Part shown: positions 11,455 through 50,620 of the stretch, piece after piece
How the letters are laid out: each line of letters opens with the position of its first letter
Numbering within the stretch: position 1 is the first letter of the stretch
Origin: a virus
IMG/VR virus record: IMGVR_UViG_3300014208_000028
Coordinates: 93,123-157,122 of that record
Strand: one strand, 5' to 3'
Length of the DNA stretch: 64,000 nt
Notes under the pieces: model-generated
The model's database searches: none
What the model saw: the letters and a program-made list of their open reading frames with translations, nothing else
What the model was told of the DNA's origin: nothing
Translations under genes and position numbers: made by a program

Positions 11455-12066
11455 TTAATTCCTATTTAACACTGGACCACCAGTGTATCCGCCAAAATCT
11501 TGTCTATTATTAAGCCCACTAATAACCTTACTTCCCGCATAGCCTACCCCAGTTACTGCTCCAGCGCCTAACATAGTATTACCATATAAAGGTAATCTAT
11601 TTTTTTGCCTAGTCATCCAATCTCCAGCAGTAACTTTACTTTTTCCGCCCATACCTTGTTTACCTGCTCCTATCCAATTACGATCTTTAATAGTATCTTT
11701 AAAATGTTCAGCTTTATTTTTATGGAAATTTAATCCTTTTTCTAAATGTTGTTTATACTCATCTAAAGTATTAAATTCTCGTACTTGTCCAGTAGCTTTA
11801 TTTGTCCTTTTTATAGGAACAAATTCTTTTCCTCTTAATCTATCCTGTTCCAAATTTTTTAATCTTTGCTCAAAAACATTACTTCCTTTAGAATGTACTC
11901 CCTCTCTAAATTTACCTATTTGAGTGGCAGTCTCTTTTAGTTTTCTGCCCGCCGCGCCGGAAGTATATAATTTTTTAAAGTTTTCAGCCACACCCATTAT
12001 ATCTTTAGCCACATTAGCTTCTTTAATTATATTAGCTAATTTTTCTATTTGATTAATTCTATTCAA
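11455..12066 (-). CDS. Leader-bearing basic protein with C-terminal Gly-rich hydrophobic segment
   Basis: TTG start, (M)NRINQIEKLA; LGAGAVTGVGYAG. Confidence 0.75.
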   Translation of the reverse strand: MNRINQIEKLANIIKEANVAKDIMGVAENFKKLYTSGAAGRKLKETATQIGKFREGVHSKGSNVFEQRLKNLEQDRLRGKEFVPIKRTNKATGQVREFNTLDEYKQHLEKGLNFHKNKAEHFKDTIKDRNWIGAGKQGMGGKSKVTAGDWMTRQKNRLPLYGNTMLGAGAVTGVGYAGSKVISGLNNRQDFGGYTGGPVLNRN

Positions 12067-12754
12067 TTATACCTTCTCTAATTTCTATAGCTCCTAAAGT
12101 ATGAGGAGGAATATTAATATTATTAGTTCTAGGATCTATTCCTGTACGCGCAACATAATTATCAAATTCTTCTGTAGTTTTCCACCTATTCTGCCATCTA
12201 TCGACCATATAAATTACACAACTTACTCTAGTATCTATTCTTTCTATTTTCGATTCCCCCGGCAAAATTTGCGCGGGTTCTGGAGGATCTATACGATAAT
12301 TTTTAATTGCCATTAAACCTCTACGTAATAGTTCTTCCTTATAATATTTTATACTTTGATATACTGTAGAAGCAAGAGTTTCTGAAATTATTACATCATT
12401 GGCGCGGCAAGTAAATATCATATTTACTGATAATATATCAGCATGTTTACTATTATCACCAGCAATATTATAACTACTCATACTATTATTTAAAAACATT
12501 TCAGCCGGGGCCATAGAAGAACGAGAAACTATAATTAATGGAATCTTACCAGTACTATCTGTATCTCTAGTCCAACTATCTCGTATAAGTACTTCAGTTA
12601 ATTGCTCATCTTTATTCCACCTAAAATTACCACTCGGAGCGCCAAAAAACATCTCCTGTAAAAAATCTAAAAATACTATTCTAGATAATATAGTAGGAGG
12701 ATATGAATTGTTTAAAATAGAAGTATTTAAATTTTTTAAGTTTGTATCTGACAT
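12059..12754 (-). CDS. Putative tail terminator/completion protein
   Basis: Position just upstream of sheath; alpha/beta pattern IPLIIVSR...NMIFTCRA...SE.LA..V. Confidence 0.5.
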   Translation of the reverse strand: MSDTNLKNLNTSILNNSYPPTILSRIVFLDFLQEMFFGAPSGNFRWNKDEQLTEVLIRDSWTRDTDSTGKIPLIIVSRSSMAPAEMFLNNSMSSYNIAGDNSKHADILSVNMIFTCRANDVIISETLASTVYQSIKYYKEELLRRGLMAIKNYRIDPPEPAQILPGESKIERIDTRVSCVIYMVDRWQNRWKTTEEFDNYVARTGIDPRTNNINIPPHTLGAIEIREGIIE

Positions 12755-13732
12755 TTAATTTACCCTTTCCCCACGCTTCCAGATATATCCGCCAGCAGGC
12801 TTATTTTTACCGTATGACTGACAAATAGCCTGACTAGTTATACCACAAGATTTAGCTCCAGCTTTTACACTATCATATTTCTTAATAAATTTTCCATCTA
12901 TTGAATACTGACTAACTGATATACTCCAATTCTTTTTATCAGGATTTATTCTCAATTTAAACAATCCTTCAACATCAATTTTATCTAATACTTTACCATC
13001 TACTAAGACATCTTCCTTATACTTAAAAATAAATCCGTGAGTAACTTTTCTACTATTATTACAAACTCTCCATACCATAGAATTATTTATCCCTAATTCC
13101 TTAGTAATATCATTCATCCTATCCCATTCTTTAATTAATATTCCATCTAGAGAGTATTGTATGATAGGGGTTACATATGTATTAGAGTTTTTATCTAATT
13201 TAGCTTTAGATAAATTATTTTTGTGTTCTTTTGAAAATTCTCTTCCTTTCAAAGAATTACTAATTTTTTTATTACGTTCTAAACTAAATTTTTTACCTTT
13301 TAACTTTTTTGATATAGCTTCTCTATGTTCTTTAGTAATTATCTTACCTCTATGCCTATCTCCTATCTTTTTTCGTGCCTCTTCTCCATATTTAATTCCT
13401 AAAGTAGTATGAGTCACTTCTTTAGCTATATTAAATAAAGGACGAATTTCACCTAATTTAAATATTTGATCCTGCTCTACTTGTAAACACTCTTCGGGAA
13501 TATCTAATATATTTAAAATATTAAATACTAAATGCTCTATGCCATACTTATTTACCCATCTTTGAAGATGTATATTGTGATGTTTATTTTTTTCTAGTTT
13601 ATCTATATGCTTTTTCCATCTCATCCAAAAATTTTCAAAAGTACTTCCTATATAAGCAGTTTCGTCTAAATCATTAGAAATCAAATAAACACCTTTCAAT
13701 TTTTTCTGTTCTTCTAGAATATTAAACTGCAT
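12755..13732 (-). CDS. Free-standing GIY-YIG homing endonuclease with NUMOD3 repeats and two NUMOD1/IENR1 domains
   Basis: GVYLISN...YIGST...RW..H; repeated K.S.E...KIS..LKG; two QYS.DG..IK....HTH units. Confidence 0.9.
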   Translation of the reverse strand: MQFNILEEQKKLKGVYLISNDLDETAYIGSTFENFWMRWKKHIDKLEKNKHHNIHLQRWVNKYGIEHLVFNILNILDIPEECLQVEQDQIFKLGEIRPLFNIAKEVTHTTLGIKYGEEARKKIGDRHRGKIITKEHREAISKKLKGKKFSLERNKKISNSLKGREFSKEHKNNLSKAKLDKNSNTYVTPIIQYSLDGILIKEWDRMNDITKELGINNSMVWRVCNNSRKVTHGFIFKYKEDVLVDGKVLDKIDVEGLFKLRINPDKKNWSISVSQYSIDGKFIKKYDSVKAGAKSCGITSQAICQSYGKNKPAGGYIWKRGERVN

Positions 13733-13748
13733 ACTTTCTCCTCTAAAA

Positions 13749-14261
13749 TCAATAATTTATGCCGGTCGGTAGAAAATACAAATATGCATAATCCGACCCT
13801 AAGCTACCTCTAACGTCGTTCATAAATAAGCTAACATTTTTAGCCGCTTTATAATTCCTTAATCTACTTTCAAATTCCTGTTGATACATACCTAGTAATG
13901 TCATATAACCTTGAAAAACATTTCCCTGATCGTCAACGCTTATATTTCCATCATTATATGCTAATCTATTTCTAGCTCTTAAAAATAATACACTTTTCAT
14001 AACTTGTATAGAAGCGCCTAAAACAAATATATATTTAGCTTCTGTAGGTACGGCTACCACATTAACATCTCCAGAAGCAGCTATAGTTAATGTACTTATT
14101 CCAAAGGGCGGTAATGAATTCCAAATATCACAAACTTGCTCCGCTGCGAGGTTTATACTTTCATCTAAACTTTCGACATCAGAAATTAATCTATTTAATT
14201 CCGCATGGTCGCGCATAAATAAACGAACTTCATAAATTAAATCTGTAACTCTATAAGCCAT
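13749..14261 (-). CDS. Putative head-tail adaptor/connector
   Basis: 170 aa helical protein in neck region; VRLF.RD, RNRL.YNDG.ISVDD. Confidence 0.55.
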   Translation of the reverse strand: MAYRVTDLIYEVRLFMRDHAELNRLISDVESLDESINLAAEQVCDIWNSLPPFGISTLTIAASGDVNVVAVPTEAKYIFVLGASIQVMKSVLFLRARNRLAYNDGNISVDDQGNVFQGYMTLLGMYQQEFESRLRNYKAAKNVSLFMNDVRGSLGSDYAYLYFLPTGINY

Positions 14262-49937: not shown

Positions 49938-49996
49938 CCTTAGATAATATTATTTATACTTTGGCGGGCCGAAAAAGTATTTAAATAAAAAAACAT

Positions 49997-50350
49997 TTAT
50001 TTAATCTTTCTCTCCTTCCGCAATTTAGTTAATTGGGATATATTAGACCCCAATAATCCACCACCAACTCCATAAAATCCGCCGAGTAATGCGAGTTGTA
50101 TTAATTTCTCTCTACTAAAATCTCTATTAAGTATACTTGGAACTAATGTTCCAAAAGCTACTCCGCTTCCTATTCCTATTTTAGTTCCCCTACTTAGTTT
50201 ATTAGAAGAATTGTTATCCCGTTTATATTTTCTATCTAAATGCTTATTTATTCTACCTAATGCTATACGACTACCTATTAGACCTGTTCCAACAATTCCT
50301 GCCTCAGCAAGAGTAAAAGCTAATTTAGATAATTGCGATACTCTACTCAA
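49997..50350 (-). CDS. Leader-bearing Gly-rich membrane-type protein (glycine-zipper-like)
   Basis: TTG start, (M)SRVSQLSKLA; three Gly-rich hydrophobic segments. Confidence 0.65.
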   Translation of the reverse strand: MSRVSQLSKLAFTLAEAGIVGTGLIGSRIALGRINKHLDRKYKRDNNSSNKLSRGTKIGIGSGVAFGTLVPSILNRDFSREKLIQLALLGGFYGVGGGLLGSNISQLTKLRKERKIK

Positions 50351-50365
50351 TCTTTCTCTCCTTTA

Positions 50366-50620
50366 TTATGTCTCTCTATTATTTTTTATTATTTTAGCCT
50401 TTTCTTCTAAATCTTTTTTTAATAAACTTTTTGCATATTTTAATTTTCGTATGAAGTGAGGTTTACCAAAATCTTGATGTATTTTAGCTCCTCTTATTAG
50501 GTCTGCCGCTTCATGAATTGCTCTAGAAGAATTAACATTTCCACTCTCATACTTAAGGATAGGAGAGATATATTTTTTTAACTCCCCAGCCAACTTTTCT
50601 AATTGATTTAATCTACTCAA
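50366..50620 (-). CDS. Leader-bearing small basic protein
   Basis: TTG start, (M)SRLNQLEKLA; overlaps RNAP stop. Confidence 0.65.
   Translation of the reverse strand: MSRLNQLEKLAGELKKYISPILKYESGNVNSSRAIHEAADLIRGAKIHQDFGKPHFIRKLKYAKSLLKKDLEEKAKIIKNNRET

What the first reader, a model, noticed from the sequence alone, without database searches (positions are those of the whole stretch)
11455..50620. A shared 11-residue leader on about 19 mostly unrelated proteins: candidate capsid-targeting signal for a packaged cargo set
Seen: proteins starting at 12066 (NRINQIEKLA), 14532 (SRIEQLEKLA), 14864 (TRLEQLIKLS), 15889 (NRIGQIEKLA), 23324 (TRLEQIQALS), 31942 (NRSEQIDKLA), 37727 (SRYAQLNKLA), 37846 (NRIEQLIKLA), 38187 (KRKEQIDKLT), 38593 (KRIEQIEKLA), 43344 (RRVNQIIKLA), 43930 (SRFEQLIKLS), 46978 (ERKNQIVKLS), 47561 (truncated, IKLA), 47809 (SRIEQIEKLA), 48367 (NRIERIAKLA), 49931 (NRINQINTLS), 50350 (SRVSQLSKLA) and 50620 (SRLNQLEKLA) share M-x-R-x-x-Q-[IL]-x-K-L-[AS]. 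Apart from two paralogue pairs, their bodies are unrelated. All are on the morphogenesis strand; I saw none on plus-strand or enzyme genes. Established: T4 internal proteins use a 10-aa N-terminal capsid-targeting sequence removed by the gp21 prohead protease, and are injected with the DNA. Inference: this is an independent and much larger targeting system, an amphipathic helix that docks cargo onto the prohead core and ends in the K-x-A site. Whether it has been described before needs a literature and database check.
Basis: partly seen in the sequence, partly recalled or inferred. Interest (0 to 1): 0.9.

Follow-up and report, generated by a model that had tools for sequence, protein, structure and literature searches.

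The report
Shared capsid-loading leader on phage proteins
About nineteen otherwise unrelated small, very basic proteins of an uncultured 200-kb groundwater phage start with the same 11-residue tag, which ends in the probable cut site of the phage's T4-type head protease and most likely loads them into the capsid, as T4 does with its internal proteins but with a different code.

Summary
Eighteen minus-strand ORFs between 12,066 and 50,620 carry M-x-R-phi-x-Q-[IL]-x-K-L-[AS]. One more has a decayed copy, and three or four copies are internal or remnants. There are none elsewhere in the 199,871-bp genome, and shuffled genomes give 0-1. Synonymous codons vary, so selection acts on the protein.

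A large clade of uncultured 100-200 kb phages carries an analogous leader, phi-x-x-E-L-x-K-I-A, also on small basic proteins. Distant homologues of one cargo family carry the clade-type leader where this phage has its own version, so the leader follows the phage lineage, not the cargo.

Best reading (about 0.65): a propeptide that is both a capsid-targeting signal and a cleavage site, equivalent to the T4 CTS. It is not independent of T4, because the protease is homologous. Cleavage, packaging and the binding partner are untested.

This scan has already noted CTS-like leaders in at least 59 other genomes; all those it listed end in hydrophobic-x-Glu. The Lys-x-Ala code and its clade-wide spread are what is new here. 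Verdict: a new variant of a known kind.

The parts
11455..12066 (-). Leader gene g12066, 203 aa, TTG start, MNRINQIEKLA|; Gly-rich basic body; directly upstream of the tail sheath gene
   Evidence: PSSM 36.2 bits
14266..14532 (-). Leader gene g14532, 88 aa, MSRIEQLEKLA|, pI 10.9
14529..14864 (-). Leader gene g14864, 111 aa, MTRLEQLIKLS|, with a second internal copy SRTFQIEKLA at 14795
15725..15997 (-). Leader gene with NRIGQIEKLA| at 15886. The codon at 15889 is GTA, so the true start is upstream (in-frame ATGs at codons 1, 14, 16, 28 of the ORF). It overlaps the end of ORF 15882-16268
16972..18015 (-). Major capsid protein. N-terminal DFEKKA|SA lies about 10 residues before the conserved YIRDRIRD
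   Evidence: phrog_2522; 100 of 101 homologues keep K-x-[AS] at this place
18475..18810 (-). Small coiled head protein starting MSAELLKLA|A. Its relatives start M..QMMKLA|A
18813..19115 (-). Acidic 100-aa head protein with ITKTA|S, IEKLA|S and LEKLA|E
19149..20294 (-). Scaffold-like acidic repeat protein with FLEELEKQA|A, several TEKTA|S, IEKDA|G and IEKEA|G, and basic Gly-rich stretches between them
   Evidence: its relatives start MNxxLAxIYGT..EKTA|
20339..21745 (-). Prohead protease. The catalytic domain (about residues 25-232) has the T4 gp21/assemblin fold and is bracketed by LEKSA|A (K21, A23) and LKKVA|Q (K230, A232). Invariant H98 and S160. Conserved Cys/His cluster C171, C174, C185, H187. 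Helical C-terminal domain
21763..22740 (-). 325-aa head-module protein starting MTKKELIEKLEKSA|A (core-type site, not the R/Q leader)
22752..23324 (-). Leader gene g23324, 190 aa, MTRLEQIQALS| (K9 replaced by A); Gly-rich basic body; same position as Arash gp221
23321..24157 (-). 278-aa head-module protein starting MDQVKIA|F. Its relatives start M..F(L/I)xKLA|
28273..30156 (-). Putative portal (assigned by position and size only) with N-terminal EMVKVA|GA and internal PEKVA|S
   Evidence: Arash gp218 starts MNFSQMALEKLNAAS; no family match
31403..31942 (-). Leader gene g31942, 179 aa, MNRSEQIDKLA|
   Evidence: Shine-Dalgarno AAAGGAG before the ATG
32102..33115 (-). 337-aa basic protein with an internal KKTA|S-IGED-MRNDQLEKLA| (polyprotein-like junction) and a C-terminal leader-like remnant KREEQLEKLKY
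37326..37727 (-). Leader gene g37727, 133 aa, MSRYAQLNKLA|; hydrophobic segments
37730..37846 (-). Leader gene g37846, 39 aa, MNRIEQLIKLA|
37843..38187 (-). Leader gene g38187, 114 aa, GTG start, MKRKEQIDKLT|. The body is a DUF5661 domain, and its homologues in relatives also carry K-x-A leaders
   Evidence: (PF18905, E 4.7e-12)
38189..38593 (-). Leader gene g38593, 134 aa, MKRIEQIEKLA|
42481..43344 (-). Leader gene g43344, 287 aa, MRRVNQIIKLA|. Paralogue of g49931. The family has distant homologues that start with the clade-type leader
   Evidence: weak ADP-ribosyltransferase leads only
43379..43930 (-). Leader gene g43930, 183 aa, MSRFEQLIKLS|
46304..46978 (-). Leader gene g46978, 224 aa, MERKNQIVKLS|. 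Paralogue of g47561. C-terminal Gly-rich hydrophobic segment plus a Lys cluster
46953..47561 (-). g47561, 202 aa, with a decayed leader: it starts MIKLA|, and the frame upstream reads stop-NKIE
47564..47809 (-). Leader gene g47809, 81 aa, MDKKA-SRIEQIEKLA| (5-residue prefix)
47822..48367 (-). Leader gene g48367, 181 aa, MNRIERIAKLA|
49122..49931 (-). Leader gene g49931, 269 aa, MNRINQINTLS| (K9 replaced by T). Paralogue of g43344
49997..50350 (-). Leader gene g50350, 117 aa, TTG start, MSRVSQLSKLA|; three Gly-rich hydrophobic segments; pI 11.3
50366..50620 (-). Leader gene g50620, 84 aa, TTG start, MSRLNQLEKLA|. Modelled as three helices, with the leader inside helix 3-24

Best explanation
The 11-residue leader M-x-R-phi-x-Q-[IL]-x-K-L-[AS] is an N-terminal propeptide with two roles. 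It addresses a set of at least 19 small, very basic and mostly orphan proteins to the assembling prohead, and it ends in the recognition site (K-phi-A) of the phage's gp21-type prohead protease, which removes it during head maturation. The mature proteins then stay inside the capsid with the DNA and are probably delivered with it.

Shown here: the motif, its position and its genome-wide specificity; selection at the protein level; a protease with the gp21 fold; the same K-x-A motif conserved in the capsid protein, scaffold and protease across a large clade; an analogous leader on small basic proteins throughout that clade; and a leader sequence that follows the phage lineage rather than the cargo family.

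Inferred: that K-x-A is cut; that the cut falls after the Ala (conservation stops there, and only Ala or Ser is tolerated, as at P1 of herpesvirus assemblin sites) rather than after the Lys (which would mirror T4's phi-x-Glu); that R3, Q6 and the hydrophobic positions 4, 7, 11 and 14 form a helical face that docks on a prohead core component; and that the cargo is injected.
For: - Motif statistics and confinement to the head-gene block.
- Synonymous codon variation.
- A sharp drop in conservation after residue 11.
- Leader proteins have a median pI of 9.9, against 6.4 for other ORFs, p 4e-8.
- K21 is invariant and A23, K230 and A232 are at least 90% conserved in 34 protease homologues. They bracket the confidently modelled catalytic domain.
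- 100 of 101 capsid-protein homologues keep K-x-[AS] at the same N-terminal place.
- Scaffold, putative portal and other head proteins carry phi-E-K-x-A sites but lack the R3/Q6 of the leader. The leader therefore holds more information than a bare cut site.
- In 113 related loci the core [DEQ]-phi-x-K-phi-[AS] occurs 4.7 times per 1000 residues at ORF positions 10-19, against 0.45 beyond residue 200.
- 75 clade-type leader ORFs have a median pI of 10.1, against 6.3, p 2e-13.
- Two complete relatives carry about 8-10 clear clade-type leaders each (12 and 16 ORFs match the loose N-terminal core), and one contig has five in tandem.
- Most of the 17 retrieved distant homologues (25 found) of the g43344/g49931 family start with ..F-x-D-E-L-E-K-I-A, where the window proteins have MRRVNQIIKLA and MNRINQINTLS.
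- T4 precedent: diverse internal proteins share only a CTS, which is removed by gp21 and suffices to package foreign proteins (PMC3012670, PMC5694885).
Against: - There is no proteomic, N-terminal or packaging evidence. The genome is a groundwater metagenome assembly with no host.
- The protease-leader complex prediction gave no verdict.
- The large RNA polymerase next to the leader genes has neither leader nor site, so the tag does not mark everything that might be packaged.
- Two leaders lack the Lys (g23324 has A, g49931 has T).
- The hydrophobic moment as an ideal alpha helix is no higher than in shuffled leaders (0.37 against 0.30); it peaks at 110-120 degrees.
- The predicted helix runs through the proposed cut site.
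- K-x-A conservation in head proteins could in principle be structural.
Confidence: 0.65

Rival explanations
1. The leader is only a protease-removed propeptide with no targeting role. Cargo would enter the prohead through its basic or hydrophobic body, or by binding DNA or scaffold. The N-terminal peptide would serve as a cut site with extended recognition, for example to keep membrane-active or DNA-binding proteins inert until they are inside the capsid.
For: The most strongly shared element across the clade is the K-phi-A core, which is also found in non-cargo head proteins. The bodies are uniformly very basic, which could itself drive co-assembly with the acidic scaffold. Minimal leaders such as MIKLA (g47561) and MLGKIA (P0027) exist.
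Against: R3, Q6 and L10 are near-invariant in cargo leaders but absent from scaffold, protease and capsid sites in the same phage. This is not expected if only the protease reads the sequence. An 11-residue peptide is unlikely to inhibit 15 or more unrelated folds. In T4 the equivalent peptide is sufficient for targeting (PMC5694885).
Confidence: 0.2
2. The tag is read by a different partner: a chaperone, a modifying enzyme (as in the RiPP-like shared tags seen elsewhere in this scan), or another assembly such as the tail or baseplate.
For: Several leader genes lie beside tail genes: g12066 next to the sheath, and g37727-g38593 after a 1031-aa fibre-like protein. A radical-SAM-like ORF (CxxxCxxC) lies at 8169-8897.
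Against: The tag ends in exactly the motif conserved in the head protease, scaffold and capsid protein. The radical-SAM-like ORF sits beside a ribonucleotide reductase gene and is more simply read as its activase. No co-occurring enzyme was seen with the clade-type leaders.
Confidence: 0.07
3. The shared N-terminus is a relic of common descent: one expanded, fast-diverging paralogue family that keeps only its start. Alternatively it is a DNA- or mRNA-level element used for translation initiation or cassette recombination, with no signal function at the protein level.
For: Two paralogue pairs exist. Leader genes are clustered. The leader codons are A-rich, which favours open mRNA at starts.
Against: - Synonymous variation with strict amino-acid conservation.
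- Bodies range from 39 to 287 aa with no detectable similarity.
- The same cargo family carries a different, lineage-specific leader in other phages.
- The leader also occurs internally, next to another K-T-A site.
- The upstream DNA is not conserved.
Confidence: 0.05

Closest known systems
Phage T4 capsid targeting sequence (CTS) of internal proteins IPI, IPII, IPIII and Alt, removed by prohead protease gp21
   Same: A short (10-20 aa) N-terminal leader is shared by otherwise unrelated, basic, head-internal proteins. The leader ends in the protease's cleavage motif, and the same motif processes the capsid protein, scaffold and protease. The protease has the same fold (PMC3012670, PMC5694885).
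   Different: There is no sequence similarity to MKTYQEFIAE. The motif is K-phi-A, not L/I-x-E. There are about 19 bearers per genome, against 3-4 in T4. The phage is not T4-like: the capsid protein is 347 aa with no long delta domain, and the nearest cultured relatives are Arash and Vibrio D-phages at 25% identity. The leader type is spread over a large uncultured clade.
Propeptides of phiKZ, 201phi2-1 and SPN3US head and ejection proteins, cut by gp175/gp245 at (S/A/G)-x-E or A-x-E
   Same: A large phage with many head-internal proteins processed by a gp21-type protease. N-terminal propeptides are proposed to act like the CTS (PMC10052503, PMC5694885).
   Different: Those propeptides are mostly 111-254 residues, are not shared among unrelated proteins, and about 80% of SPN3US head proteins are uncut (PMC10052503). 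Here one short common leader is used, and the cleavage motif has no Glu.
Herpesvirus assemblin maturational and release sites, (V/L/I)-x-A|S (from general knowledge; not tested here)
   Different: An invariant Lys lies two residues before the Ala, and the residue between them is hydrophobic. The scissile bond is unknown here. This is a phage, and there are many cargo substrates.
Encapsulin cargo-loading peptides
   Same: A short shared peptide addresses unrelated cargo to the interior of an HK97-fold shell.
   Different: Encapsulin peptides are usually C-terminal, are not removed, bind the shell protein directly, and no protease is involved (from general knowledge; not tested here).

Membership tests
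T4-type CTS / internal-protein system | One short N-terminal leader shared by otherwise unrelated proteins | tested here: met
   18 full copies plus 1 decayed copy. Bodies are unrelated except for two paralogue pairs.
T4-type CTS / internal-protein system | The phage encodes a gp21-family prohead protease | tested here: met
T4-type CTS / internal-protein system | The leader ends in the motif at which capsid protein, scaffold and protease are also processed | tested here: met
   Motif co-occurrence and conservation are shown. Cleavage itself is not shown.
T4-type CTS / internal-protein system | Cleavage motif (L/I)-x-E and a leader similar to MKTYQEFIAE | tested here: not met
   The motif is K-phi-[AS], and no Glu is required at the end of the leader. 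This is therefore a functional analogue with homologous machinery, not a member of the T-even CTS sequence family.
T4-type CTS / internal-protein system | Cargo is small and basic | tested here: met
   Median pI 9.9 against 6.4. In relatives, 10.1 against 6.3.
T4-type CTS / internal-protein system | The leader is sufficient for encapsidation, is removed in the prohead, and the cargo is injected | not testable with these tools
   The genome is a groundwater metagenome assembly with no host. The Arash virion proteome has no N-terminal analysis.
Herpesvirus-assemblin-like specificity (P1 Ala) | Cleavage between Ala and a small residue | tested here: inconclusive
   Ala or Ser is near-invariant and conservation ends after it. 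Cleavage after Lys (phi-x-K, mirroring T4's phi-x-E) fits equally well. The complex prediction gave no verdict.
ADP-ribosyltransferase cargo (T4 Alt-like) for g43344/g49931 | ART fold and catalytic motifs | tested here: inconclusive
   Only sub-threshold leads were found. Atlas feature hits to several ART families score 0.78-0.81, and structure TM is below 0.5. One member of 19 hits Exotox-A_cataly at E 0.057. No PDB profile hit.

The most novel reading that the evidence does not exclude
A large, almost wholly uncultured clade of 100-200 kb phages (nearest isolates: Salmonella phage Arash and Vibrio phages D69, D148, D181) uses a gp21-fold protease with a Lys-x-Ala code, closer to the Ala-based sites of herpesvirus assemblin than to T4's Glu-based sites. 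It also uses a portable helical leader (phi-x-x-E-L-x-K-I-A; here rewritten to R-phi-x-Q-phi-x-K-L-A) as a general address label. That label loads dozens of fast-evolving basic effectors into the capsid. The label co-evolves with its receptor in the prohead core, so it changes by lineage while the cargo families persist.
Probability: 0.45. Interest if true: 0.6.

Novelty: new variant of a known kind. Interest (0 to 1): 0.5.

Why it matters
If the reading is right, the leader works as a sequence-only marker for the set of proteins a phage packs and probably injects. These proteins are normally invisible to annotation: here 18 of 19 have no family match. Such proteins include anti-defence factors in T4.

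The finding also extends the CTS principle from T-even phages to a distant, environmentally widespread clade that uses a different protease code. It gives a natural case of leader and receptor co-evolution, because the same cargo family carries different leaders in different lineages. It also suggests a short tag that could be used to load foreign proteins into capsids of cultured clade members.

The Lys-x-Ala code has a practical consequence. Tryptic proteomics will tend to hide these maturation sites.

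Tried and rejected
- Complex prediction of the whole protease (with a 34-row alignment) against the 39-aa leader protein g37846: score 0.00, no verdict. It is not evidence either way.
- Search for the window-type leader elsewhere. The back-translated RIEQIEKLA pattern in IMG/VR gave 5 internal chance matches. A looser N-terminal pattern gave 20 single matches, and none is a real leader set. A PSSM over 169 fetched loci found nothing at N-termini. The R/Q version appears private to this lineage, or its close relatives are not sampled or are withheld.
- Close relatives (capsid protein 45-50% identical) sit on contigs of 5.6 kb or less. They give only one suggestive case, SPEQIKLAF in L008.
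- Megablast of 8 kb against GenBank phages: no match.
- PHROGs and Pfam on leader proteins: nothing except DUF5661 in g38187. PHROGs on ten neighbouring structural ORFs: nothing.
- A word-based homologue search with g43344 found only itself.
- The ART assignment for g43344/g49931 could not be confirmed.
- The hydrophobic moment at 100 degrees does not differ from shuffled leaders, so 'amphipathic helix' rests on the 4/7/11/14 spacing and on one AF2 model.
- Rejected: a secretion signal (the leader is hydrophilic, with no hydrophobic core), and the L27/Prp-type leader of Firmicutes phages (different motif).

Full report
**1. What is there**

The window lies at 93,123-157,122 of a single 199,871-bp contig. 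Public groundwater metagenome runs hold this contig. GC content is about 31%. PHROGs identify a tail sheath (9739-11439), a major capsid protein (16972-18015) and a head maturation protease (20339-21745). They also identify a ribonucleotide reductase and a homing endonuclease.

The nearest GenBank phages are Salmonella phage Arash and Vibrio phages D69, D148 and D181. Capsid-protein identity to them is only 25%, and protease identity is about 40% over the N-terminal half.

**2. The observation**

Translating from the 19 listed starts reproduces the quoted sequences. A loose regex over six frames finds true copies only on the minus strand between 12,060 and 50,614, both in the window and in the whole genome. 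A PSSM of 18 leaders gives 21 hits of at least 18 bits in the genome, against 0-1 in ten triplet-shuffled genomes.

Codons vary at synonymous positions. Arg uses both codon families, Leu uses five codons, and position 11 uses GCN or TCN. The DNA upstream is not conserved, and most copies have their own Shine-Dalgarno sequence. Selection therefore acts on the peptide.

Information content is high through residue 11 and drops at residue 12, with one more hydrophobic position at 14. With the leaders removed, blastp links only g43344/g49931 and g46978/g47561.

- The copy at 15889 begins with GTA and lies inside ORF 15725-15997.
- The copy at 47809 has a 5-residue prefix.
- The copy at 47561 is decayed.
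- Extra copies lie at 14795, at 32422 (internal, right after a KKTAS site), at 30955 (weak) and at 32149 (a C-terminal remnant).
- 280 of 325 ORFs in the genome are on the minus strand, so the strand carries little information. The confinement to a 39-kb block is what counts.

**3. The link to the head protease**

The leader ends in K-L-[AS]. The same phi-E-K-x-A motif occurs in several head proteins:
- the capsid protein N-terminus (DFEKKA|SA);
- the scaffold-like acidic repeat protein, repeatedly (ELEKQA|A, TEKTA|S, IEKDA|G, IEKEA|G);
- the putative portal (MVKVA|GA);
- three small head proteins;
- the protease itself.

In an alignment of 34 protease homologues at 28-37% identity, K21 is invariant, and A23, K230 and A232 are at least 90% conserved. 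In the AF2 model (mean pLDDT 80) the low-confidence segments are 1-24 and 236-254. The two sites therefore bracket the folded catalytic domain.

Among capsid-protein homologues, 100 of 101 keep K-x-[AS] within 16 residues before the conserved YIRDRLRE. Arash shows the same motif in its protease, scaffold, capsid protein and portal. Its published virion proteome reports no N-terminal analysis.

From this I infer that K-x-A is the maturation site of this protease lineage. The scissile bond is not determined. A cut after Ala is favoured because conservation ends there and only Ala or Ser is tolerated. A cut after Lys would mirror T4's phi-x-Glu rule.

**4. The leader is more than a cut site**

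Scaffold, protease and capsid sites in this phage lack R3 and Q6 and tolerate any residue between K and A. The cargo leaders have R3 in 18 of 18, Q6 in 17 of 18 and L10 in 18 of 18, at a fixed distance from Met1. Hydrophobic positions 4, 7, 11 and 14 follow a 3-4-3 spacing.

A single-sequence AF2 model of g50620 puts residues 3-24 in one helix, with pLDDT 80-90. The hydrophobic moment at 100 degrees is not above that of shuffled leaders; it peaks at 110-120 degrees. The helix reading is therefore reasonable but not strong.

**5. The bearers**

They range from 39 to 287 aa, with a median pI of 9.9 against 6.4 for the other ORFs (p 4e-8). Several have Gly-rich hydrophobic segments flanked by Lys clusters. 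Only g38187 has a family match, DUF5661.

The g43344/g49931 pair has only sub-threshold ADP-ribosyltransferase leads. The 2794-aa RNA polymerase next to the array has neither leader nor site.

**6. Relatives**

A capsid-protein profile retrieved 160 loci, 113 of them non-redundant, from metagenomes and IMG/VR. GC content ranges from 37 to 67% and contigs reach about 200 kb. The window's exact leader is absent from them.

They carry an analogous one: M-x(2-12)-[AS]-F-x-x-E-L-x-K-[ILV]-[AS]. The core motif is tenfold enriched at ORF positions 10-19. Its 75 bearers have a median pI of 10.1 against 6.3 (p 2e-13).

Two near-complete relatives carry about 8-10 clear clade-type leaders each (12 and 16 ORFs match the loose N-terminal core); in one they are scattered over the genome. 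A 3-kb contig has five in tandem.

Aligned from the Ala, the window's R(-8), Q(-5), I/L(-4), K(-2), L(-1) correspond to the clade's F, E, L, K, I. The window's own scaffold still has the clade form, FLEELEKQA.

**7. The leader follows the phage, not the cargo**

An exhaustive profile search with g43344 and g49931 found 25 distant homologues. I retrieved 19 and aligned 17 of them. Most begin with ..F-x-D-E-L-E-K-I-A, followed by the conserved body, and the Lys column is at least 90% conserved. DUF5661 homologues in relatives likewise carry K-x-A leaders.

One cargo family thus bears different leaders in different lineages. This is what is expected of a signal read by a phage-specific common partner. 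It argues against relic homology and against a DNA-level element.

**8. Comparison with what is known**

In T4, diverse internal proteins share only a CTS, which targets them to the scaffolding core and is removed by gp21. The CTS suffices to package foreign proteins (PMC3012670, PMC5694885). phiKZ-like phages use long, unshared propeptides cut at A/S/G-x-E (PMC10052503).

The present system has the same logic and a homologous protease. It differs in the leader, in the cleavage code and in the much larger cargo set, and it sits in a clade with almost no cultured members.

I found no description of this leader or of a K-x-A code in the held literature. That search is limited to open-access text.

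This scan has itself noted CTS-like leaders in at least 59 other genomes; all those it listed end in hydrophobic-x-Glu. The general phenomenon is therefore not rare.

**9. Verdict**

A targeting-plus-cleavage leader is the best reading at about 0.65. It is not an independent invention, and nothing about packaging has been shown.
- Rivals, with my estimates: a cleavage-only propeptide (0.2), a tag for another partner (0.07), and a relic or nucleotide-level element (0.05).
- Novelty: a new variant of a known kind.
- Interest: 0.5.

Noticed in passing
window 20339-21745 (protease residues 169-187): The gp21-fold protease carries a cluster conserved across 34 homologues: D169 and C171 invariant, C174, C185 and H187 at least 90% conserved, read as D-x-C-x-x-C ... 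Y-C-x-H. It looks like a zinc-binding insertion. Some relatives have a 40-residue insert at this place. I do not recall this from T4 gp21.
   Followed up: partly
window 32102-33115: A 337-aa basic protein looks like a fusion of two cargo genes. It has two Gly-rich hydrophobic repeats, then KKTAS, then a complete internal leader (MRNDQLEKLA) and a further domain. It ends in a leader-like KREEQLEKLKYKLKK that resembles the N-terminus of g38187.
   Followed up: partly
window 46953-47561: The truncated leader is a decayed one. The frame upstream of the ATG reads stop-N-K-I-E, then M-I-K-L-A, so the gene keeps only the K-L-A part. Its paralogue g46978 keeps the full leader.
   Followed up: yes
window 12755-13732: A 325-aa homing endonuclease (phrog_314, E 2e-21) is inserted among the structural genes between the sheath-side genes and the head genes.
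   Followed up: no
window 8169-8897: An ORF with a CxxxCxxC radical-SAM-type motif lies two to three small ORFs downstream of the ribonucleotide reductase gene (5025-7217). It is probably the reductase's activase. I considered it as a possible leader-modifying enzyme and set that aside.
   Followed up: partly
window 24335-26144 and 33907-37317: Two plus-strand gene islands interrupt the minus-strand structural block. None of their ORFs has the leader.
   Followed up: no
L190 (ENA contig k141_7166420, 3017 bp): A tandem array of five small genes each starts with M-D/N-x-x-x-I-F-[MLI]-x-E-I-E-K-[VLM]-[AS]. One of them is a homologue of the g43344 family.
   Followed up: yes
window 42481-43344 and 49122-49931; alignment A4: This cargo family has conserved blocks VPLxxRLxxYKxWKxTGxLP, LYSGG, LPGxT..GLYAxP, PAxAxxxVPR and E-x-x-IP, and about 25 distant homologues. 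ADP-ribosyltransferase leads are repeated but all sub-threshold.
   Followed up: partly
window 50617-59001: The 2794-aa RNA-polymerase-like ORF flanking the leader array has no leader and no phi-x-K-x-A-[SAG] site. In Arash the RNA polymerase subunits were the most abundant proteins in the virion preparation (PMC10585845). If this enzyme is packaged, it uses another route.
   Followed up: partly
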